A stretch of 64,000 bases of DNA from Candidatus Alloscybalousia sp. Lineage in GTDB: Bacteria; Bacillota_I; Bacilli_A; RF39; UBA660. The translations under genes were made by a program, and so were the position numbers. Location of the stretch: NCBI GenBank assembly GCA_045595895.1, contig JAZOBJ010000035.1:25277-89276 (forward strand). Direction: 5' to 3'. The notes beneath the pieces were generated by a model. It was given only the letters and a program-made list of their open reading frames with translations, was not told the DNA's origin and did no database searches. Within the stretch, counting starts at the first letter, position 1, and each line of letters starts with the position of its first letter. This document shows positions 29,996 to 38,880 of the stretch, one piece after another.

Positions 29996-30955
29996 TTATT
30001 TATTATATTTTTTATAAAGTAATCTTTTCTCATAATTCGCCTTAGGTAATGGTTTATCATAATAATATCCTTGAATAATGTCACAATTAATACTTTTTAA
30101 ATAATTTAATTGATCCTCATTTTCTATTCCTTCGCATATTACTGTTTTACCTAGTTTTTTCATCATATCTATAGTCGATGATAAAATAATTCTGCCATTT
30201 TCAGTATTATATTTATCAACAAATGATTTATCCATTTTTATAATATCGAATGGCACTTGTAATAATAATTCTAATGAAGAATATCCCTTACCATAATCAT
30301 CTATTGATACTTTAATACCATATAGATGTAAAATTTCTACAAATTTATTAATTATTGTATAATCTTCAAGCGTTCCTGCTTCAGTAAATTCTATTTCAAT
30401 ATATTTGGTATCAATACCATAGCTAAAGATTGTACTAATAATTCTTTTAATAAAACTAAAATCTTCTTTTTGATCTATAAAATGATATCTTGAAAAATTA
30501 ATTGATACAGTTACTGGCTCAATTCCTTTTTCTAATTGTTCTTTAATATCTTTACATACTTTATTTAATATATAAAAATCTAATTCGCATACATATCCAT
30601 ATTGTTCTAATATTGGAATGAATTTATTAGGCGGCAAAATTTTTCCATCATTAGTAAACCACCTAGATAATGCTTCTGATGAACATATAGTGTTATTACT
30701 TATATCTACTTTAGGTTGATAATATGGTTCTATTTTTCTATCATTTAAATCTGCAAAAAAAGTTTTTTGTACTAATCTAGATAACTCTATTTTTTCTTTT
30801 ATTTCTTCAGCTAGTTCATCAACATTTACATTATTTATATTTAAGCGTGGAGAAATATCTGAAAATAATTTATTCAATTCCATAATCAAATCATTAATAT
30901 TAATATAATCATTTTCAAATTTTTGAAAAATTAATTTTAATAAATCATTATACAT
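29996..30955 (-). CDS. EAL-domain c-di-GMP phosphodiesterase
   Basis: EALSRW (EALxR), DDYGKGYSS (DDFGTGYSS) and KMDKSFV (KxDxxF) motifs. 319 aa, cytoplasmic. Confidence 0.85.
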   Translation of the reverse strand: MYNDLLKLIFQKFENDYININDLIMELNKLFSDISPRLNINNVNVDELAEEIKEKIELSRLVQKTFFADLNDRKIEPYYQPKVDISNNTICSSEALSRWFTNDGKILPPNKFIPILEQYGYVCELDFYILNKVCKDIKEQLEKGIEPVTVSINFSRYHFIDQKEDFSFIKRIISTIFSYGIDTKYIEIEFTEAGTLEDYTIINKFVEILHLYGIKVSIDDYGKGYSSLELLLQVPFDIIKMDKSFVDKYNTENGRIILSSTIDMMKKLGKTVICEGIENEDQLNYLKSINCDIIQGYYYDKPLPKANYEKRLLYKKYNK

Positions 30956-30966
30956 ACGTCGACCGC

Positions 30967-32810
30967 CTATCTTACTTTTTTCTTTTGTTTGGCAGCATAC
31001 ATATCTTTATCGGCTATATCAATAAGTTTTAAAAGTGATAAATCATTTTCATTATCTATTGCAATAATTCCTATACTAGCATTTAATCTAAATGGCGAAT
31101 ATTCAAAATAATTACTTTCATTTAATTCATCAATAAAATCATTTAATTCTTTAACAAAATTTTCAGCATCTTCTTTAGTGGCATTTGCCCCAAAAATTAC
31201 AAATTCATCGCCTCCAAATCTCATCATTAAATAATTATATTTTTGGTTTATATGTGTTAATGCGTTAGCATAATCACTTATAAAAACATCTCCATACTTA
31301 TGTCCTAAACTATCATTTATATATTTTAATCCATCTAAATCAGCAAAGATCAAAAACATTGGTTCATTTAAATATTTAGAACGTGCATATATTTTATCAG
31401 CTTTATCAAAGAATCCTTTTCTATTAAACAGTTTAGTAAGAGTATCATGACTACTTACTTCTTCTAACTCTTTATACATTTGTTTCATTTTCTTATAAGT
31501 ATTAATAGCTTCTAATGAATTAGCTATATTATTAATAAAAGTTCTAAATAATTCATTGTATAATGGTCCCATATAATTATTTGTTATTACATAACCATAA
31601 TAATTGTTTAAATAATGTAGCGGAATTATTATAGAAAAATTACCTGGTTCTGTGTTTTTTAATTCAGGCATAATATCTTTTTTATCAATTGTTTCATTAA
31701 TACACATATCATCTTCTAATACATAATGTAATGGTACAGTTAATTCAGTATTTCCAATATTCTCATCAATGCACATACAAAATTCAGTTACTTTAAATTT
31801 TTTTAAATATTTTGGTATTAAAGCAATTAATTTTTCAATTGAATCAGCTGCAACAAATTCTGACGCCGAATCATTTATAAACTTTGAATATTTTAAATGT
31901 TCAATATTTTCTATTGCATAATTTTTATATTTTTGCATTAACTCGCTATCATCCAACTCTTGATAATTTATACAACAACTTTTTCTAAATTTTGGTATAG
32001 CTTTTACTATTTCATCTTCAGCTACTTCGTTTTTTGATAACGCTAATAATTTATTAAATGCTATTAATCCAATATAATCTTCCTGTCTTTCCACTGATGT
32101 TATACTTGGTAAATTATATTTTGCTTGAGCGATATCATCAAATCCAGTCAATAAACAATCGTCTGGTATTTTATAACCTAATTTTGTTAATTCATTATAA
32201 GCACCTAAAGCCATTTGATCATTTGCACATATGTACACATCAGCATCCAATAAATTTTTACTTTGAAAATAATCTATTGCACAACTTCCACTATCAGCTA
32301 AAAAATCTCCATAATAAATTCTATTTTCATCTAATTCTATATTATTTTCTTCTAATATTTTCTTACAGCCATATAATCTTTTTTGAGTATCTGAACTGTT
32401 AATAGGCCCACCAATAAAATTAACCTTTTTTACGTTATGTACTTTTATTAGATGATCCATAATTTCTATCATTGCATAATAATTATCAGTTGAAATATTA
32501 GTACCAATTTTTATATCATAATCTATACTAACTATATTTTTGTTAAACGTTCTAATTTTTTCAATTAATCTTTCTCTTAATTCTTGACTGTAAATTGTTT
32601 CGGAATATAGAATAAATCCATCATATGAATCCATATCAATCCTATTAATATATTCAAATTCACCTTGGTTGTAACTTACTTCATCGGAACTAAAAAATGA
32701 AAATATATTAAAATCAATATTATGCTTTTTGCATTCTTCATATATACTTAATATAACTTTTCTTTGCGTATCTAGATGAATTTGTCCTAAAAACATTGCA
32801 ATTTTTTTCA
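30967..32810 (-). CDS. Sensor diguanylate cyclase: periplasmic-binding-protein (LacI/PBP type 1)-like ligand-binding domain fused to GGDEF
   Basis: Start set at MKKIAMFLGQ (GGGGGGAA RBS). The N-terminal about 300 aa resembles a sugar-binding PBP1 fold (..ANDQMALGAYNELTKLGYKIPDDCLLTGFDD). C-terminal RFGGDEFVIF. Confidence 0.7.
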
Positions 32811-33003
32811 TGATATTCCCCCCCGTTAAAAACTTTTCGATTACTTTATCACATTTCTCAAAAAAAATCAATAAAAAAGGATTAAGCAAAAGCTTAACCT
32901 TTTAATTATTTATTTATTTTCTTGAACTACAGCTTGTACCACAGTTTAGTTCGGGATGCCATAATATAAATTTAAGTTAGATGACTTTTTTTACATCTAA
33001 ATG

Positions 33004-33303
33004 TTAATCACTAATTCTTACGTTAACCCCATCTATATTTTTATATACACGTTTTTCGTTTTTAGAAACCTTTTTTTCAATTTCGTCTGCTAAATCAAAA
33101 CCTAGCATTTCAGATAATCCCATTAAGTAAATAGCAATATCAGCTAATTCTTCATTCAAATCATCTTTTTTCTTTTTCCAAGCATCATATGCTTCAGACA
33201 CTTCCCCATACAGTAAACAAAATTCTTTATTTACATCTGTTGTATTAAATCCTTTGTTTAATTTATTTTGCCAAATATCTTTTTGAATCTTTTTTAATTC
33301 CAT
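33004..33303 (-). CDS. MazG-like all-alpha NTP pyrophosphohydrolase domain protein
   Basis: Start at MELKKIQ (AAGGAGG 6 nt upstream). CLLYGEVSEAYDAWKK...LNEELADIAIYLMGLSEMLGFDL carries the EExxE/D metal-binding helix pattern of MazG/YpjD-type enzymes. Confidence 0.55.
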   Translation of the reverse strand: MELKKIQKDIWQNKLNKGFNTTDVNKEFCLLYGEVSEAYDAWKKKKDDLNEELADIAIYLMGLSEMLGFDLADEIEKKVSKNEKRVYKNIDGVNVRISD

Positions 33304-34852
33304 GTTTTTCCTCCTTAAATTCATTGTAATATTCTATTACCTTATTAACATTATACTCTAAAAATTTATTTAATTCAATCTCACTAAGCGTTTTATCGTT
33401 AACAATAGTATATACTGGAATAATTCGTTCATCAACTAATAAATATCCAAAAGTTTCACCCATTTTTGTATATTCAAATATGTCTTTTGAGTATACATTG
33501 TTCATAGTATCATCAGAAACATAATGCCCACCATTCTCAAATCTTATTCTGTTTCTATTTTTTCTTGTTTCTAAACTAGAAACTAAATTAACAATAATAC
33601 AATTGTCACTATTTTGCAAATCGTTTATAAAACTTTTTATACTACGAAAATATGCATTTTCAGAAAATTCTAATTCGTATAACTGATCCCTGCCTCTTGA
33701 AAATTGAATTATATTATGTGTTTCTGAATTTACAACTGCCATTTGAATTATATAATCCCATAGAATAGGTCTTATTATATCGTGTCCATCTCCCAGCTTT
33801 GCTGGTTTAGTATAGTGACTGATTGAATTTATATTATCATTATACTCTTCCCATATTTTATTAATATATCTAAGTTCATTTTTAATTTTTTTAAATTCCT
33901 CTATTTTATTTTGATATAGTAAATCATCTAGCATAAACGTTTCTAATAATGGCGCTAAATCATCTATATCTGAATATATATTATAGTAGTTTTTAAAATA
34001 ATCAATAAATGTTGTTTTTCCAGCACAAGAATTACCTATAACAATAATATTATTAGGAAGTAATTTTGATTTGGTAGTATTATCTATACATGATTGTATA
34101 GATAATAAAGGTCCTATATTTTCTATAGATTTGCTAGAATTATAAATTCCTTGTGAAATAGACTCATCTATATCTTGAGTAATTATATATTTTGATAAGA
34201 ATCCACCAATAAAAGAATCTCCAGCACCAGTAGTAGATTTAATATTATTGTTGTTCGTCACATTATAACTAATTGTATTAGTTGGCGTTATTGCAATGAC
34301 AGGCTTGTTTTCATTTGTTACTATTACTAACGGTATATCTTTTACATATTTTTTTATTATATTGTACTCATTAATATTACAAAATAAGATTTCTATTTTT
34401 GAAGCATATTTTTCTATTATAGGTATAAAATCTACAACACTATGTATCATTACATCTATCGAAAGATGATTATAATTCAATAATTTATTTTCTAAAATTC
34501 TTTGGACATCTACACCTTTTCTTAATGATATATGTAAATGATTGACAGCTATTTTTGTTTCTAATTTAATTATATCTGTATTATAAAATTGTGATTCACA
34601 AGTGGCTTTTGATTCATCAATTATAAACTCTGTCATCCTATCAACGATAGTTCCATAAAACTCTATTTGCTTTTCTTTTAATAGTAAACGTGTATCACTA
34701 TCCACTTTACTTATTATTGCGATTCTACCATCATAAGAAGTTCTCGAAGAAAAGCTCGAATATATACAACTTCCTCCTAATGTATTGTAAATTCCGTTAT
34801 TTACAATGATTTTATCATTGGAAGAATTACCTACATAACATAAATCAATCAT
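33263..34852 (-). CDS. Fusion protein: N-terminal PfkB-family (ribokinase/nucleoside kinase-like) domain plus C-terminal P-loop NTPase/kinase domain
   Basis: PfkB signature NIKSTTGAGDSFIGGFLS at about residue 200. Walker A IIVIGNSCAGKTTFIDYF at about residue 265, followed by an about 250-aa kinase-like region (FSRGRD). Confidence 0.55.
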   Translation of the reverse strand: MIDLCYVGNSSNDKIIVNNGIYNTLGGSCIYSSFSSRTSYDGRIAIISKVDSDTRLLLKEKQIEFYGTIVDRMTEFIIDESKATCESQFYNTDIIKLETKIAVNHLHISLRKGVDVQRILENKLLNYNHLSIDVMIHSVVDFIPIIEKYASKIEILFCNINEYNIIKKYVKDIPLVIVTNENKPVIAITPTNTISYNVTNNNNIKSTTGAGDSFIGGFLSKYIITQDIDESISQGIYNSSKSIENIGPLLSIQSCIDNTTKSKLLPNNIIVIGNSCAGKTTFIDYFKNYYNIYSDIDDLAPLLETFMLDDLLYQNKIEEFKKIKNELRYINKIWEEYNDNINSISHYTKPAKLGDGHDIIRPILWDYIIQMAVVNSETHNIIQFSRGRDQLYELEFSENAYFRSIKSFINDLQNSDNCIIVNLVSSLETRKNRNRIRFENGGHYVSDDTMNNVYSKDIFEYTKMGETFGYLLVDERIIPVYTIVNDKTLSEIELNKFLEYNVNKVIEYYNEFKEEKHGIKKDSKRYLAK

Positions 34853-35346
34853 TTTCTCACCAATTTCTTTACTTGACTTCTAACTTGTTCAATATTTGCT
34901 TCATGAGTATTTATAGCAATTACATCTATAAATTTAGAAGAATATTCCATAATTTCATCATATTTTTTATTTAATTCTTCATAATGATTTGCAATAACTT
35001 CATAATCACTTTTTTCATCATTTCTTCTTTTTAATAAAACATCTTTAGGAGCTGTTAAATAAATAATTTTAGCTCCAGCATTTTTATATGCAACTAATAG
35101 TTTTGTGTAATCTTCAAGGCTTAATTTACATTTATTCCTTATAACCGGTCCATAAACCATTTCACTAATAAATGATCTATCTAGCACCAATTCACTATCA
35201 TCTTCTAATAAAACTTTCATGTATTTTGAGAATAAATCCATGTTTTTTGAATCATAATCAAAATGATATTTTTTCATTCCATAACTTTGTAAATGTTCAA
35301 CTAAAGTTGTTTTACCTACACCATCTATACCTTCTATTATTAACAT
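34849..35346 (-). CDS. Thymidylate-kinase-like small P-loop (d)NMP kinase
   Basis: MLIIEGIDGVGKTT matches the Tmk EGxDGxGKST P-loop. About 165 aa, with a lid-like region. Confidence 0.55.
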   Translation of the reverse strand: MLIIEGIDGVGKTTLVEHLQSYGMKKYHFDYDSKNMDLFSKYMKVLLEDDSELVLDRSFISEMVYGPVIRNKCKLSLEDYTKLLVAYKNAGAKIIYLTAPKDVLLKRRNDEKSDYEVIANHYEELNKKYDEIMEYSSKFIDVIAINTHEANIEQVRSQVKKLVRK

Positions 35347-35366: not shown

Positions 35367-36128
35367 TTATTTCCTACATTTGCATTTTACTTCAACGCAA
35401 TCTCTTAATGGACAATTTTCAGGATTATGTTTATTGCAAAAATAGCGTTTATAATAAATAAGAACTAAATGACAAAACCATGTAGCATTATCATAATTTT
35501 CTACTTTAAGTTCTTCATATCCATTTTGTTTTATTATTTCTTCCACATTATTATTCTTTACTAATACTTCTAATTCTTTTCTTAAAATATCGTGCCCTAA
35601 TGCATTTTTATATTGTTCAAATCCTAAACAAGGTAATTCTACATCCTTCATACCACTATCCACTGGTATTATACCTGAATAATATCCTCTTATGTACAAA
35701 ACACAACATTGTGCTACTTTGTAAGATGCACCACTAACATTATCAGCAATTAGTTTAATCAATTCATCATTAGATAATGTTTTTATTTCATTATCATATT
35801 TTTCTATAAAATCAATCATTGATGACAAATATTTATATCTTGTATTTGACAATCCTAATCCTTTAATTATATTAATGATTTCATCTTCCGTCATATTTTT
35901 GATTTCATCATAAGTGTAACTATTTAAATCATTTATTACTTTTCTATAACTATCTATCATATTATAAGAGATTCTAGTAGAAAGACCCGCAATCAATAAT
36001 CTTTTTCTATAATCCTCTACTTCTAGAGGCCACCATAAGTTATTATTGTGATTCTTTTTTACTGCATTTCTGACTTCTTCCTGATTACTACATATATCAA
36101 TAATCTTTTTAAATTCTTCTCTCGTCAT
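35367..36128 (-). CDS. Endonuclease III/MutY-family-like HhH-GPD DNA glycosylase with a C-terminal 4-Cys (Fe-S-like) loop
   Basis: LLIAGLSTRIS...IINIIKGLGLSN aligns with EndoIII helices. HhH-GPD segment VSGASYKVAQCCVLYIRGYYSGIIPVDSGMKDV (Lys and Asp present). C-terminal C-x7-C-x4-C-x4-C (CNKHNPENCPLRDCVEVKC). Confidence 0.5.
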   Translation of the reverse strand: MTREEFKKIIDICSNQEEVRNAVKKNHNNNLWWPLEVEDYRKRLLIAGLSTRISYNMIDSYRKVINDLNSYTYDEIKNMTEDEIINIIKGLGLSNTRYKYLSSMIDFIEKYDNEIKTLSNDELIKLIADNVSGASYKVAQCCVLYIRGYYSGIIPVDSGMKDVELPCLGFEQYKNALGHDILRKELEVLVKNNNVEEIIKQNGYEELKVENYDNATWFCHLVLIYYKRYFCNKHNPENCPLRDCVEVKCKCRK

Positions 36129-36139
36129 GCTTACCTCCT

Positions 36140-36781
36140 TTAAATATTATTGTCTCTTTTAATCTTTGCAAATAAGCTTGAATTGCTCGAAATAATTTGT
36201 GTATTCAACTTATATTCTAAGTTCTCTATTATGCCAATTGTAGGTAAATTTGTACAAGATATAATAATATTTTCGTATTCATTTAAGTAATTTTCTTTTA
36301 TTAATTTTTCTAATTCATTTATTCCATAATTAAAATAATCTGCTGTATGTAATAAATCTAAATTTATATTTTTTATAACTTTTATTCCATTATCTTCTAA
36401 CATTTTTGCTATTTCTTTTCCTAATTTATCATTATATGGTGTTATTAATAAACATTTTTTAATATTTCTTATTTTTGATTCCTCAATCAATGAAATAGTT
36501 GGATTTATTTCCTCTACTCCATTTTCTAATGCTGAAGTAGTACAAAAGAATGCATTATAATCAACATCTAAATATTCTAAGTCTTTTTTCTTATTATTTA
36601 TATCTGTAGCAAGATCTTCTAGAAACTTTATTTTATCTTCCTTATAATTTGTTTTATAATCTAGTTTAGATATATAAAATACACTTTTTCCTATATCAAA
36701 ATATCCTTTACTAAAAAGCATTTGCAATTCATATTCAACAGTCAAATTAGTTTTAGGTATTAATAATCCTATTTTTTTCAT
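36140..36781 (-). CDS. Asp/Glu/hydantoin racemase superfamily protein (maleate-isomerase/arylmalonate-decarboxylase-like fold)
   Basis: MKKIGLLIPKTNLTVEYE and IISCTNLPTIGIIENLEYKLNTQIISSNSS match the two-Cys signatures of this superfamily. Confidence 0.5.
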   Translation of the reverse strand: MKKIGLLIPKTNLTVEYELQMLFSKGYFDIGKSVFYISKLDYKTNYKEDKIKFLEDLATDINNKKKDLEYLDVDYNAFFCTTSALENGVEEINPTISLIEESKIRNIKKCLLITPYNDKLGKEIAKMLEDNGIKVIKNINLDLLHTADYFNYGINELEKLIKENYLNEYENIIISCTNLPTIGIIENLEYKLNTQIISSNSSLFAKIKRDNNI

Positions 36782-38286
36782 ATTATTTCTCCAATAATTG
36801 TTCTATTACCAATGTATCCAACTACTTTAACTTTATAAAATTCATCTAATTTTAGCTCCTTGTTTAAAATTACTACTCTTACTGGACATGTACCCATTTG
36901 TCTTAGAATTGAATCACCATCTTTATACATTTCCATTCTTAATTCGCTAATTTCTAAACCAATTGGAAAAACTTCTTTTAGCATTGGAACGATAAATTCA
37001 TTTTCTATTGTTTTACTCCAAAGATTAAATTCTTTTAAATCTTCTTCACTATAATTATCAAATTGTTCACCATAAGGAGAAGTTAATTTCCTAACAAAAA
37101 CTCTTCTTACCCAATTTCCAGAATTTAATATTTTATTAAAATTATCTAAATTATGTCTTAATGTATTTTCGTTTTGACCGTCTAATCCATAAATTATATT
37201 AATACCTGGAAGTAATTTAGGTAATCCGTTTTTTCCTCTTTCTTTCCCATATTTATTAATTATAGATATTGATTTATGAATATCATCTAAAGATCCATTT
37301 AAATTACATTTTTCTCTTATTATTGGATCAAATGATTCAATTCCAAAGGGTGTAATGTTTCCTGCTGTAGTATATTTAGCTACTAATTCAGTTATTTGCT
37401 CACCGGATTCTGTATTTACATTATGGGGACTAACATTATCAATATGTAACGTTTTAATATTTGGACAAGCACTCCAAATTCCTTTAAATAAGTTTTCTAT
37501 TTCTTCTACATTACAATTCTTATAGGCATAAAAATTTGGTTGCCTTCCTAATCTAAAATATAAGGCTCCATTAGCATATAAACTATTAATTTCATCTATA
37601 ATATCTTCTTTTTCCCTAAACTGTAATGGCAAACCTCTCATTCCTTCTATACAAAATGTACAACCAGGATTTCTATTACATCCTGTAGCAGTTTCTATCT
37701 CAATTACTAGTGGTCTTTCTATTTGTTCTAATACACTTGATGAATCAATTGCAATTTGTCTTAACTTATCATAATTTGGTTTAAACTTATTACCACTTTC
37801 TCCAATAAAATAATTATAAGTATTACCAAAAATAATATCATTAAATAAATTGCTAGGTACTGTTTTCCTAATATTTTCTCTTGTTAATTCACTTCCACCA
37901 AGAGAATAAAATAATAATTTATTAGTTTCTTTGTTACAGAAAAGATTTAATAATTTTTCTACTTCTAAAAAAGTAGGAGGTTCTGCTGAAACATATTCAT
38001 ATTTAACAAAACATCCCATTACAACATAAATATTTGTTGCATTTTTCAATATTTCTGAAACATTGTTAGCATTTTTTGTTTTATTTATTATTCTTTTATT
38101 ATATGAACTATCAAAATGTTTTTCTCCATTTGCAAAACGTAAATCATCAATTGTTAAATAATAATAGTTAACATTTTTATTTTTTAAAGCACCTGCTATA
38201 TATCTAGAATGTACACTTAAATATGGTGGTACGCCTAATCCTGATGGTTCATCCGTATAACAATCTATTATTACATCATATTTCAT
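36778..38286 (-). CDS. Radical-SAM-like protein with non-canonical CX5CX2C cluster motif, N-terminal flavodoxin/B12-like region and TRAM-like C-terminal barrel
   Basis: VIEIETATGCNRNPGCTFCIEG. C-terminal CPVRVVILNK...YKVKVVGYIGNRTIIGEII resembles a TRAM domain. Architecture echoes MiaB/RimO-type enzymes, but the sequence is highly divergent. Confidence 0.45.
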   Translation of the reverse strand: MKYDVIIDCYTDEPSGLGVPPYLSVHSRYIAGALKNKNVNYYYLTIDDLRFANGEKHFDSSYNKRIINKTKNANNVSEILKNATNIYVVMGCFVKYEYVSAEPPTFLEVEKLLNLFCNKETNKLLFYSLGGSELTRENIRKTVPSNLFNDIIFGNTYNYFIGESGNKFKPNYDKLRQIAIDSSSVLEQIERPLVIEIETATGCNRNPGCTFCIEGMRGLPLQFREKEDIIDEINSLYANGALYFRLGRQPNFYAYKNCNVEEIENLFKGIWSACPNIKTLHIDNVSPHNVNTESGEQITELVAKYTTAGNITPFGIESFDPIIREKCNLNGSLDDIHKSISIINKYGKERGKNGLPKLLPGINIIYGLDGQNENTLRHNLDNFNKILNSGNWVRRVFVRKLTSPYGEQFDNYSEEDLKEFNLWSKTIENEFIVPMLKEVFPIGLEISELRMEMYKDGDSILRQMGTCPVRVVILNKELKLDEFYKVKVVGYIGNRTIIGEII

Positions 38287-38299
38287 CTTAAATTCCTCC

Positions 38300-38794
38300 T
38301 TAATCGATTAAAGTTATAACATGAAATGGAATTACCTTTTCTTTTAGTTCTGATAGCGCCAAAAATAATATATCATGTGTATCATCAATTAGAATAGCTA
38401 ATTCACATTCGTTCGAATCTAATTTTTCTCTTATTTTATCAATTTTTATTTTCTTTCTAGATTCAAAGTTTTGTGATAAAACAAAAATTTTATTTTTTTC
38501 TTTAATATATGGCATATATTTGTCAAGCCACAAACTTTTTTCCTCTGCTTGTTCTTTATATAAGCATGAACTTAATATAAACATTTCACAATCTATTTCA
38601 TCATTAATCCTTTGTAAATTATTTATTGTAGTATATATAGGTCTCTTATTTAAATATAGTCCAGGTTTATTGTTCTTTATATTTTCTCCTTCTCCAAACC
38701 TGTAATCTGCTATTACTCCATCCATATCTACAAAAATAGAAATTTTCTTAGAATTGTTTTTTATTATTTTTTTTATTTCTTCTAACAAATACAT
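38300..38794 (-). CDS. HAD-superfamily 5'(3')-deoxyribonucleotidase-like (NT5C/YorS family)
   Basis: Motif I ISIFVDMDGVIADY (DxDGV) near the N-terminus, typical of the NT5C family. 164 aa. Confidence 0.55.
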   Translation of the reverse strand: MYLLEEIKKIIKNNSKKISIFVDMDGVIADYRFGEGENIKNNKPGLYLNKRPIYTTINNLQRINDEIDCEMFILSSCLYKEQAEEKSLWLDKYMPYIKEKNKIFVLSQNFESRKKIKIDKIREKLDSNECELAILIDDTHDILFLALSELKEKVIPFHVITLID

Positions 38795-38850
38795 AGAATA
38801 CCTCCAATTAACTATATTATAACATAAATATGAACTTTTTTAATACTATC

Positions 38851-38880
38851 AAAAAGACCAAGATTTTGAAATCTTAGTCT
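38851..38880 (-). terminator. Rho-independent terminator of ppdK
   Basis: AGACCAAGATTT-TG-AAATCTTAGTCT hairpin followed on the minus strand by UUUUUGAUAG. Confidence 0.6.

What the first reader, a model, noticed from the sequence alone, without database searches (positions are those of the whole stretch)
35367..36128. EndoIII-like Fe-S HhH-GPD protein embedded in a nucleotide-kinase/rSAM operon rather than in a repair context
Sequence threads onto EndoIII: LLIA.LS..., HhH-GPD loop with Lys (SGASYKVA) and Asp (IPVDSGMKDV), then a C-x7-C-x4-C-x4-C tail replacing the canonical C-x6-C-x2-C-x5-C. A base-excision-fold protein co-transcribed with dNMP kinases, a MazG and a nucleotidase could be a base-exchange (transglycosylase-like) or modified-base-specific glycosylase rather than housekeeping Nth.
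Basis: partly seen in the sequence, partly recalled or inferred. Interest (0 to 1): 0.55.

Follow-up and report, generated by a model that had tools for sequence, protein, structure and literature searches.

The report
New glycosylase family in nucleotide cassette
A protein with the fold and catalytic residues of DNA base-excision enzymes, from a small unnamed family, is always encoded beside (and often fused to) nucleotide kinases, a radical-SAM enzyme and nucleotide-cleaning enzymes in a gene block shared by gut bacteria and Streptomyces, which points to an undescribed pathway that makes or polices an unusual nucleic-acid base.

Summary
The ORF at 35367-36128 (-) is real. It encodes a very divergent HhH-GPD-fold protein that keeps the helix-hairpin-helix, the Gly/Pro-Asp loop, and the Lys and Asp that align with EndoIII K120 and D138. 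It is not an Nth orthologue: it scores 17 bits against a cutoff of 212, and an exhaustive profile search finds only 116 cluster representatives and no canonical Nth.

Only C231, C239 and C251 are conserved among close relatives, and one subclade has no tail Cys at all.

The operon context is confirmed. A cassette of rSAM, two-Cys isomerase, HhH-GPD, dNK/TMPK-like kinase, PfkB kinase and an NTP pyrophosphatase, plus NT5C/HAD or NDT, recurs in Bacilli, Clostridia, Alphaproteobacteria, Bacteroidota, Chloroflexota and actinomycetes. All 39 assessable rSAM+isomerase loci carry the HhH gene. About 20 cluster representatives are HhH-kinase fusions.

The HhH gene also survives alone in 12 of 79 loci. 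In one of these a clean deletion left it behind the operon promoter.

The most likely role is a Lys-dependent N-glycosidic-bond enzyme dedicated to a non-canonical base that the cassette makes or handles. A DNA substrate is favoured and a nucleotide substrate is a serious rival. The cassette is uncharacterised, and its genes are annotated as hypothetical.

The parts
38855..38880 (-). Terminator-like hairpin after the upstream PPDK gene. It marks the upstream boundary of the cassette transcript.
   Evidence: The same hairpin is conserved in L010.
38816..38843 (-). Promoter-like site (TTAAAA, 16 nt, TG-n-TATAAT) in front of the first cassette gene.
   Evidence: The -10 region TATGTTATAATATAGTTAAT is identical in L010, where it directly precedes the solo HhH gene.
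38300..38794 (-). NT5C-type HAD 5'(3')-deoxyribonucleotidase-like protein, 164 aa. This is a variable accessory gene: it is replaced by tandem NDT domains in actinomycetes and by a HAD domain fused to the kinase in Alphaproteobacteria.
   Evidence: Pfam PF06941, 1.6e-8; variants.
36778..38286 (-). Radical-SAM enzyme, 502 aa, with MiaB/MtaB/RimO-like three-domain architecture including a C-terminal TRAM-like barrel. Its cluster motif is C203-x5-C209-x2-C212 (37651-37680).
   Evidence: Pfam PF04055; invariant Cys; AF2 model pTM 0.82; Foldseek MtaB/MiaB E 5e-17 to 2e-16.
36140..36781 (-). Asp/Glu-racemase / maleate-isomerase / AMDase-superfamily protein, 213 aa, with both catalytic-position Cys conserved (C80, C176).
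   Evidence: Pfam PF17645; PDB maleate isomerase 2xec E 6e-5; Cys conservation across 19 sequences from several phyla.
35367..36128 (-). The finding: a divergent HhH-GPD-fold protein, 253 aa.
35709..35732 (-). HhH hairpin plus the putative nucleophile, G133-A-S-Y-K137-V-A-Q140. K137 is encoded at 35718-35720.
   Evidence: Invariant; K in 44/47; hhalign places GASYK over EndoIII GVGRK.
35658..35675 (-). Gly/Pro-Asp loop, G152-I-I-P-V-D157. D157 is encoded at 35658-35660.
   Evidence: D in 45/45 and P155 in 44/47.
35376..35438 (-). Cys-rich C-terminal tail, C231...C239...C251. It is a probable metal site of unknown kind and is not the canonical EndoIII cluster loop.
   Evidence: A tblastn of EcNth residues 175-204 aligns here only at E 1.2.
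34849..35346 (-). Small dNK/TMPK-like P-loop kinase, 165 aa (GIDGVGKTT; DRSFISEMVYG). It is fused to the C-terminus of the HhH domain in many relatives.
   Evidence: Pfam dNK 4e-8 and Thymidylate_kin 7e-8; PHROG 761, 9e-22; fusions P0121-P0157.
33263..34852 (-). PfkB (ribokinase/adenosine-kinase family) domain plus a C-terminal P-loop domain, 529 aa.
   Evidence: Pfam PfkB 5.7e-10; PDB adenosine kinases E 5e-4. The two domains are separate genes in L049.
33004..33324 (-). MazG-like all-alpha NTP pyrophosphatase, 106 aa.
   Evidence: Pfam PF12643 3.5e-8 and PF03819 5e-6; PHROG pyrophosphatase 4.6e-14.
32880..32899 (-). Terminator-like hairpin after the last cassette gene.

Best explanation
The gene encodes a member of a small, previously unnamed and very divergent branch of the HhH-GPD superfamily. 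It is the obligatory N-glycosidic-bond enzyme of a horizontally mobile cassette of six to eight genes.

The rest of the cassette reads as follows. All of these roles are inferred from family membership.
- A PfkB kinase, a dNK/TMPK-like kinase and a further P-loop kinase could carry a nucleoside to the triphosphate.
- A MazG or Ham1 NTP pyrophosphatase, together with an NT5C/HAD phosphatase or an NDT glycosidase, could drain or supply the matching canonical nucleotide.
- A MiaB-like radical-SAM enzyme and a two-Cys isomerase would do the actual base or sugar chemistry.

Within this cassette I think the HhH-GPD protein most likely works like a bifunctional EndoIII/Ogg-type enzyme. The HhH hairpin holds a phosphate backbone, a base is flipped into the pocket, D157 activates, and K137 attacks C1' to form a Schiff base.

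Its substrate is most likely DNA that carries the non-canonical base the cassette makes or handles, or the canonical base it replaces. The enzyme would then police or edit DNA with respect to that base, as producer immunity or repair, or as the excision step of a base replacement.

Shown: the fold, the conserved Lys and Asp, the cassette linkage, the fusion to the kinase, and independent survival of the gene alone. Inferred: catalysis, the substrate, and the chemical nature of the base.
For: Fold and active site. The AF2 model has pLDDT 83. Every top PDB fold match is an HhH-GPD DNA glycosylase. K137 and D157, the HhH hairpin and the G/P-D loop are conserved to 35% identity. Pfam HhH-GPD hits 10 of 31 diverse members, best E 2.6e-6.

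Not Nth. TIGR01083 scores 17 bits against a cutoff of 211.7. A profile search of 1.84 billion representatives returns only 116 proteins, none of them canonical Nth.

Cassette linkage. The rSAM, Amdase-like, HhH, kinase, PfkB and MazG genes are syntenic in loci from gut Bacilli to Streptomyces. All 39 rSAM+Amdase metagenome loci with enough sequence carry HhH. About 20 cluster representatives are HhH-kinase fusions.

DNA rather than free nucleotide.
- The HhH hairpin is intact, and R43, R52, R97, R183, K227 and R228 are invariant or nearly so.
- From established knowledge, characterised HhH-GPD enzymes with this Lys/Asp pair act on DNA.
- The partner rSAM has a MiaB-like fold with a TRAM-like domain of the kind that binds nucleic acid.
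- The gene is retained intact and alone in 12 of 79 loci. The nearest relatives of three of these solos are cassette-borne at 91-95% identity.
- In L010 a clean deletion put the gene directly behind the operon's own promoter. It therefore has a use without the biosynthetic genes.
Against: No activity, substrate or product is known.

The recurrent fusion to a dNK/TMPK-type small-molecule kinase, and in Alphaproteobacteria the fusion of that kinase to a HAD phosphatase, is more natural if both act on the same free nucleotide.

The cassette encodes no DNA polymerase, ligase, nuclease or transporter.

Sequence similarity to any solved glycosylase is not significant. The fold match is only moderate, at TM about 0.5.

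The window protein's pI is 6.2, unlike its relatives at 8-9.

The solo loci were examined only over +/-10 kb, so the other genes could lie elsewhere in those genomes.
Confidence: 0.45

Rival explanations
1. Nucleotide-level enzyme. The HhH-GPD domain cleaves or exchanges the base of a free (deoxy)nucleoside monophosphate through a Lys-(deoxy)ribosyl-5-phosphate intermediate. It hands the product to, or takes the substrate from, the adjacent or fused dNK/TMPK-like kinase. The cassette is then a pre-replicative pathway, or a salvage or catabolic pathway, for a modified nucleotide, in the manner of the PsuK/PsuG kinase-plus-glycosidase pairing or of phage dNTPase plus dNMP-kinase toolkits. This includes the first reader's 'transglycosylase' reading.
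For: HhH-kinase fusions occur in about 20 of the 116 family representatives, and the two genes are adjacent everywhere else. The kinase carries TMPK/dNK motifs (GxDGxGKT, DRS..S...Y) and hits Pfam dNK and Thymidylate_kin. The rest of the cassette consists of soluble-nucleotide enzymes: PfkB with adenosine-kinase-like hits, MazG or Ham1, NT5C or HAD, and NDT. Three kinases would suffice to take a nucleoside to the NTP.
Against: I could not confirm here any HhH-GPD enzyme that acts on a mononucleotide. A Qng1-type precedent is recalled from memory only, and no such protein appeared among the fold hits. The retained HhH hairpin and the many conserved basic residues suit a polynucleotide. Solo retention of the gene without any kinase is harder to explain unless host kinases and an external supply of the base are assumed.
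Confidence: 0.3
2. The protein is a base-flipping DNA-modification transferase and not a glycosylase. It would be analogous to the phage aGPT-Pplase (PUGT) enzymes, which have a DNA-glycosylase-like helical fold and act with a P-loop DNA kinase (5-HMUDK), an rSAM isomerase and a decarboxylase to hypermodify thymidine after replication.
For: The component list is strikingly parallel: a glycosylase-like HhH protein, a P-loop kinase, an rSAM enzyme, and an enzyme of a decarboxylase/isomerase superfamily (PMC8989533; PMC11472151). There is a weak BFVD fold hit to a '5-hmdU DNA kinase helical domain' protein (TM 0.42, E 2.6).
Against: Profile comparison with M6 gp51 and gp55 finds nothing. The solved aGPT-Pplase (8Z2M) is not among the listed top 50 PDB fold hits, whereas true glycosylases are. 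No Pfam aGPT-Pplase or HMUDK hit was returned. The EndoIII-type Lys and Asp are conserved, which argues for C1' chemistry. The kinase resembles M6 5-HMUDK only generically (E 0.003 pairwise). No phage or viral contig carries the family.
Confidence: 0.08
3. It is simply the organism's housekeeping endonuclease III, sitting by chance next to nucleotide-metabolism genes.
For: It has an HhH-GPD fold with the EndoIII-type Lys and Asp. No other nth was seen in the 64-kb window.
Against: It scores 17 bits against the 211.7-bit nth equivalog cutoff. The family has only 116 representatives among 1.84 billion, with patchy phyletic spread. The cassette synteny is conserved across phyla, and gene fusions occur. 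The family is present as an extra gene on Streptomyces plasmids. The canonical 4-Cys loop is absent.
Confidence: 0.02

Closest known systems
Endonuclease III (Nth) and the bifunctional HhH-GPD glycosylase/lyases (Nth, Ogg)
   Same: They share the two-domain helical fold, the HhH hairpin followed by a Lys (EndoIII K120 corresponds to K137), and a Gly/Pro loop ending in Asp (D138 corresponds to D157, about 20 residues later). They also share a basic 'KR-x-x-C-x6/7-C' stretch at the C-terminus that resembles the first half of the Fe-S cluster loop.
   Different: There is no significant sequence similarity. The N-terminal 'NHDNNLWWP' motif and C141, H179, H220 and N232 are specific to this family. 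The tail has three conserved Cys, and in some members none, instead of C-x6-C-x2-C-x5-C. The gene is never found in a repair context and is always linked or fused to nucleotide kinases.
Phage thymidine-hypermodification modules (5-HMUDK P-loop kinase + aGPT-Pplase glycosylase-like protein + rSAM isomerase + decarboxylase; phages M6, ViI, PaMx11)
   Same: They combine the same enzyme classes around a DNA-glycosylase-like helical protein (PMC8989533, PMC11472151).
   Different: No homology is detectable between the HhH proteins. The rSAM is of a different type, MiaB-like here and SPL-like in M6. This cassette has a two-Cys isomerase where the phage module has a PLP decarboxylase. It has additional PfkB, MazG/Ham1, NT5C and NDT genes. 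It is found only in cellular genomes and not in phages.
Phage pre-replicative base-replacement toolkits (dNTP pyrophosphatase + dNMP-modifying enzyme + dNMP kinase +/- dNMP phosphatase; for example T4 hmC and the MazZ/PurZ Z-genome), recalled from established knowledge
   Same: They use the same logic: a MazG-type NTP pyrophosphatase, a dedicated dNMP kinase and a dNMP phosphatase are encoded around a modifying enzyme.
   Different: This cassette is cellular, carries an HhH-GPD protein and an rSAM enzyme, and encodes no polymerase. Its product is unknown.
MiaB/MtaB/RimO methylthiotransferases (for the partner rSAM)
   Same: They share the three-domain architecture, including a TRAM-like C-terminal barrel (Foldseek E 5e-17 to 5e-13).
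   Different: The cluster motif is CX5CX2C and not CX3CX2C. The N-terminal domain has a conserved 'DCYTxEPSGLGVPPY' motif instead of the MTTase Cys triad. NCBIfam scores are about 24 bits against cutoffs above 250.

Membership tests
Endonuclease III (Nth; NCBIfam TIGR01083 equivalog) | Whole-protein score at or above the curated equivalog cutoff | tested here: not met
   17.1 bits against a cutoff of 211.7. PDB EndoIII phmmer gives E 0.016 over 60 residues only.
Endonuclease III (Nth) | C-terminal [4Fe-4S] ligands C-x6-C-x2-C-x5-C | tested here: not met
   The window tail is C231-x7-C239-x4-C244-x4-C249-x-C251. Only C231, C239 and C251 are conserved among close homologues. One subclade has none, and actinomycete members differ.
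Endonuclease III (Nth) | Catalytic Lys in the HhH motif and Asp about 18 residues downstream | tested here: met
   K137 is kept in 44/47 and D157 in 45/45, with a spacing of 20. hhalign registers GASYK over GVGRK.
HhH-GPD superfamily (Pfam PF00730) | Score at or above the Pfam gathering threshold | tested here: not met
   The window protein scores 20.7 bits against 26.2. Ten of 31 diverse members hit at E <= 0.01, best 2.6e-6.
HhH-GPD superfamily | Two-domain helical fold shared with solved HhH-GPD glycosylases | tested here: met
   Foldseek PDB: the top 35 matches are all HhH-GPD enzymes. The best is 1orn, E 4.5e-3, prob 1.00, TM 0.51/0.58. The model has pLDDT 83.
HhH-GPD superfamily | HhH hairpin plus a Gly/Pro-rich loop ending in an invariant Asp | tested here: met
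   G133-A-[SG]-[YF]-K-V-A-Q and G152-x-x-P155-[VI]-D157 are conserved.
HhH-GPD superfamily | N-glycosylase activity on DNA | not testable with these tools
   This needs enzyme assays.
aGPT-Pplase / PUGT (phage thymidine hypermodification) | Sequence or profile similarity to aGPT-Pplase clades | tested here: not met
   hhalign of A1 against M6 gp51 and gp55 gives probability below 1%. No Pfam hit was returned.
aGPT-Pplase / PUGT | Structural similarity to the solved PUGT (8Z2M/8Z2N) | tested here: not met
   PUGT is not among the listed top 50 Foldseek PDB matches.
aGPT-Pplase / PUGT | Encoded in phage genomes next to a 5-HMUDK and a dUMP hydroxymethylase | tested here: not met
   No relatives were found in INPHARED phages or in IMG/VR. 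The kinase is only generically similar to M6 gp54.
MiaB-type methylthiotransferase (partner rSAM) | CX3CX2C radical-SAM motif and curated family score | tested here: not met
   The motif is C203-x5-C209-x2-C212. TIGR00089 scores 24 bits against a cutoff of 251. The fold is nevertheless MiaB-like.

The most novel reading that the evidence does not exclude
The cassette is a cellular system that synthesises a non-canonical (deoxy)nucleotide, using the rSAM enzyme, the two-Cys isomerase and three kinases. It installs that nucleotide in the bacterium's own DNA, or removes it, through the HhH-GPD enzyme. This would be a base-excision-style or base-exchange-style DNA modification pathway, or a pre-replicative one policed by a dedicated glycosylase. 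It would occur in human-gut Bacilli, Clostridia and Alphaproteobacteria and in Streptomyces, and it would have no characterised counterpart.
Probability: 0.2. Interest if true: 0.9.

Novelty: new variant of a known kind. Interest (0 to 1): 0.66.

Why it matters
HhH-GPD enzymes are textbook DNA-repair proteins. This branch of the superfamily is instead locked into, and often fused with, a nucleotide-activating and radical-SAM gene set. That set has spread horizontally between gut commensals with genomes of about 1 Mb and actinomycetes.

Whichever substrate reading is right, the cassette implies an uncharacterised modified base or nucleotide in bacteria. It also implies a new use of Schiff-base glycosylase chemistry: dedicated excision, base exchange, or nucleotide processing.

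The cassette occurs in cultivable Streptomyces, so it is directly testable. Possible outcomes are a new DNA or RNA modification, a new nucleoside natural product with its resistance glycosylase, or a new kind of anti-phage nucleotide chemistry.

Tried and rejected
1. Housekeeping Nth. Rejected on the curated score, the family size and the conserved synteny.

2. Canonical 4-Cys Fe-S loop. Rejected by alignment. Whether the three-Cys tail binds Fe-S or Zn could not be decided, because no model coordinates were available to find a fourth ligand.

3. Homology to the phage aGPT-Pplase / 5-HMUDK system. hhalign, BLAST and the fold searches were all negative or generic. I keep it only as an analogy.

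4. Phage or viral origin. tblastn against INPHARED and a pattern scan of IMG/VR found nothing.

5. Known defence systems. PADLOC gave only weak generic P-loop hits.

6. Literature. Five full-text searches on combinations of the cassette's components found no description of it. The Iyer et al. 2013 paper that defined aGPT-Pplase is not in the library.

7. A broader family profile against PDB sequences. There was no significant hit, and the weak ones are glycosylases.

8. Context of paralogous rSAM genes that lack the cassette (L132). The neighbours are unrelated and uninformative.

9. Recurrent neighbours of the solo HhH genes. There are none; 'family 5' turned out to be generic ABC ATPases.

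11. A bulk PADLOC scan of about 290 flanking proteins was prepared but not run, because the input was impractical to pass.
Full report
**The object**

The window is AT-rich (about 26% G+C). It carries a tight block of seven genes on the minus strand.
- 38300-38794: an NT5C-type HAD nucleotidase.
- 36778-38286: a 502-aa radical-SAM protein.
- 36140-36781: an AMDase / maleate-isomerase-like protein.
- 35367-36128: the ORF in question.
- 34849-35346: a 165-aa dNK/TMPK-like kinase.
- 33263-34852: a PfkB domain plus a P-loop domain.
- 33004-33324: a MazG-like pyrophosphatase.

The genes overlap by 4 bp or are 11-20 bp apart.

A terminator-like hairpin (38880-38855) and an extended -10 promoter (38843-38816) precede the block. 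A second terminator-like hairpin (32899-32880) follows it. The leader is real: the same hairpin and the same -10 sequence are conserved in a relative. Co-transcription is therefore well supported.

**The protein**

Sequence similarity to known families is faint.
- Pfam HhH-GPD scores 20.7 bits against a gathering threshold of 26.2.
- The nth equivalog scores 17 bits against a cutoff of 211.7.
- The best PDB sequence hit is an EndoIII at E 0.016 over 60 residues.
- A profile of 31 diverse family members still finds no significant PDB sequence hit. The weak hits are glycosylases.
- Pfam HhH-GPD is hit by 10 of those 31 members, best E 2.6e-6.

The fold assignment is nevertheless firm. An AlphaFold model has pLDDT 83 and pTM 0.73. 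It matches only HhH-GPD DNA glycosylases at the top of the PDB list: EndoIII 1orn at E 4.5e-3, prob 1.00 and TM 0.51/0.58, followed by MagIII, MutY, Ogg and MIG.

The signature elements are the best-conserved parts of the family. They are the HhH hairpin G133-A-[SG]-[YF]-K137-V-A-Q and the loop G152-x-x-P-[VI]-D157. K137 is kept in 44/47 sequences and D157 in 45/45, down to about 35% identity. hhalign places GASYK on EndoIII GVGRK, whose Lys is K120. A Lys at this position is the mark of the bifunctional, Schiff-base-forming members of the superfamily; that rule comes from established knowledge.

Some conserved features are specific to this family: 'NHDNNLWWP' near the N-terminus, and C141, H179, R183, H220, K227, R228 and N232.

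**The Cys tail**

- Among homologues of at least 68% identity, only C231, C239 and C251 are invariant. C244 and C249 vary.
- In the wider family the pattern is C-x6/7-C-x8-15-C.
- Actinomycete members read L...C-x6-C-x5-C-x-H.
- One subclade (P0134, P0141, P0147, P0149, P0153, P0157 and others) has no tail Cys at all.

The stretch 'KR-x-x-C-x7-C' resembles the first half of the EndoIII cluster loop (E 1.2). A metal site is therefore plausible, but it is not the canonical 4-Cys cluster and it is dispensable in part of the family. The tools here cannot tell Fe-S from Zn.

**A small, discrete family**

A word-indexed search found 548 unnamed homologues. An exhaustive profile search of 1.84 billion 50%-identity representatives found only 116 proteins and did not reach canonical Nth or MutY. 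About 20 of the full-length representatives are 430-450 aa long. In these, the HhH domain is fused at its C-terminus to the same dNK/TMPK-like kinase that follows it in the window.

**Conservation of the neighbourhood**

A scan of one genome per species returned 79 loci. They come from gut Bacilli and 'Tenericutes' MAGs, Clostridia, gut Alphaproteobacteria, a Bacteroidota MAG and a Chloroflexota MAG. They also come from many actinomycetes, including Nonomuraea, Streptomyces and Actinoplanes. In most of them the rSAM, Amdase-like, HhH, kinase, PfkB and MazG genes are adjacent.

The accessory genes vary, but always within the same theme.
- Streptomyces carries rSAM, Amdase-like, HhH, PfkB, a tandem NDT-domain protein, the kinase and MazG.
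- Alphaproteobacteria carry a Ham1 pyrophosphatase, PfkB, a P-loop protein, rSAM, HhH, a kinase fused to a HAD phosphatase, and the Amdase-like gene.

I also anchored on the rSAM instead. In metagenomes, 39 of 39 loci that have the Amdase-like gene and at least 900 bp of further sequence also have HhH. Seven paralogous rSAM loci (34-39% identity) lack the whole set. The HhH protein is therefore an obligatory cassette member.

RefSeq annotates these genes as 'hypothetical protein' or 'radical SAM protein'. Five literature searches found no description of the cassette. It is absent from phage and viral collections and present on some large Streptomyces plasmids.

**The partner enzymes**

The rSAM model has pTM 0.82. 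Its closest structures are MtaB, MiaB and RimO at E 5e-17 to 5e-13 over all three domains, including a C-terminal TRAM-like barrel. Its cluster motif, however, is an invariant C-x5-C-x2-C, and the N-terminal domain carries a distinctive 'DCYTxEPSGLGVPPY' motif.

The Amdase-like protein keeps both catalytic-position Cys, C80 and C176, across phyla. That makes it the racemase/isomerase type and not the single-Cys decarboxylase type.

The kinase has TMPK/dNK motifs. The PfkB domain is nearest to adenosine kinases.

**The gene alone**

In 12 of the 79 loci the HhH gene stands alone, full-length and with both catalytic motifs. These solos are scattered through the family. The closest relatives of L010, L048 and L052 are cassette-borne at 91%, 92% and 95% identity. 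This implies at least three independent reductions.

L010 is explicit. The PPDK gene, its terminator hairpin and the operon's -10 region are followed directly by the HhH ribosome-binding site and start codon. NT5C, rSAM and the Amdase-like gene were therefore cleanly deleted. The downstream genes are replaced by ToxI-like repeats and a ToxN/AbiQ-like ORF.

One caveat applies. Only +/-10 kb around each solo was seen, so the other genes might sit elsewhere in those genomes.

**Interpretation**

The following points are established.
- The protein is a divergent HhH-GPD protein with EndoIII-type Lys and Asp.
- It is not Nth.
- It is an obligatory member of a mobile nucleotide-centred cassette.
- It is repeatedly fused to a dNMP-kinase-like domain.
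- It remains useful on its own.

The mechanism is inferred: K137 attacks C1' of a flipped-out nucleotide, assisted by D157. The substrate is uncertain.

I favour DNA carrying the cassette's special base, or the canonical base it replaces, at about 0.45. The reasons are the retained HhH hairpin and the conserved basic residues, the strong prior from the superfamily, the TRAM-like domain on the partner rSAM, and the solo retention. In that reading the enzyme is an immunity or repair glycosylase for a nucleotide analogue, or the excision step of a base replacement.

The serious rival, at about 0.3, is a mononucleotide glycosidase or transglycosylase coupled to the fused kinase. This reading explains the fusions and the soluble-nucleotide character of the cassette better.

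An aGPT-Pplase-like transferase role is an attractive analogy: glycosylase-like protein, P-loop kinase, rSAM and decarboxylase (PMC8989533). It fails every homology test I could run.

**Verdict**

The fold, the Lys and Asp, and the operon are confirmed. The Fe-S motif is not.
'Not housekeeping, cassette-dedicated' is supported. The actual activity is untested.
- This is a new family in a known superfamily, set in an uncharacterised and widely transferred cassette. It is worth experimental follow-up, and that is feasible in cultivable Streptomyces.

Noticed in passing
window 37651-37680 (-), rSAM residues C203-C212: The radical-SAM cluster motif is C-x5-C-x2-C (GCNRNPGCTFC) and not the usual C-x3-C-x2-C. 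It is invariant from the window protein to actinomycete homologues at about 32% identity. The N-terminal domain has an invariant 'DCYTxEPSGLGVPPY' motif in place of a methylthiotransferase Cys triad.
   Followed up: partly
L010:10930-11573: Directly downstream of the solo HhH gene lie two tandem repeats of about 55 nt (GAAAATGTTTTTCGCTTCCGGGTGGCTAGCGAATAATAA...) followed by a 156-aa ORF that looks like ToxN/AbiQ. This would be a type III toxin-antitoxin (abortive infection) module occupying the place of the lost cassette genes. A homologous ORF (family 45) lies just downstream of the intact cassette in L041. The identification rests on recall of the ToxIN layout and was not tested.
   Followed up: no
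L052:8996-11279: A solo HhH gene that is 95% identical to the cassette-borne one in L049 is flanked on both sides by ORFs resembling type I restriction specificity (HsdS) target-recognition domains. This suggests insertion in a restriction-modification or defence locus.
   Followed up: no
L049:6002-12557: The alphaproteobacterial version of the cassette has a different gene order. It carries a Ham1/ITPase-family pyrophosphatase, and its dNK/TMPK-like kinase is fused to a HAD phosphatase (402 aa). That layout recalls polynucleotide kinase-phosphatases.
   Followed up: partly
L081:8405-9790 and L163:5159-6508: In Streptomyces a protein of about 450-460 aa (Pfam SP15_N; annotated in RefSeq as a tetratricopeptide repeat protein) is transcribed divergently from the cassette in two loci. 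It may be a regulator. In L163 a SAM-dependent methyltransferase follows the MazG-like gene.
   Followed up: no
L115, L126, L128, L129, L131, L132, L157: Paralogues of the cassette rSAM (34-39% identity; some sources name the family 'radical SAM superfamily enzyme with C-terminal helix-hairpin-helix motif') occur without any other cassette gene. In L132 the neighbours are unrelated housekeeping genes.
   Followed up: partly
window 35367-36128: The window's HhH protein has a calculated pI of 6.2. Relatives from L010, L047, L049, L057 and L060 have pI 8.1-9.1, similar to E. coli Nth at 8.4.
   Followed up: no
window 32880-32899 versus ORF 30967-32889: The terminator-like hairpin that ends the cassette overlaps the listed TTG start of the downstream 640-aa GGDEF-type ORF. 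Its true start is probably the internal ATG (MKKIAMFLGQ...). A separate EAL-domain ORF follows at 29996-30955.
   Followed up: no
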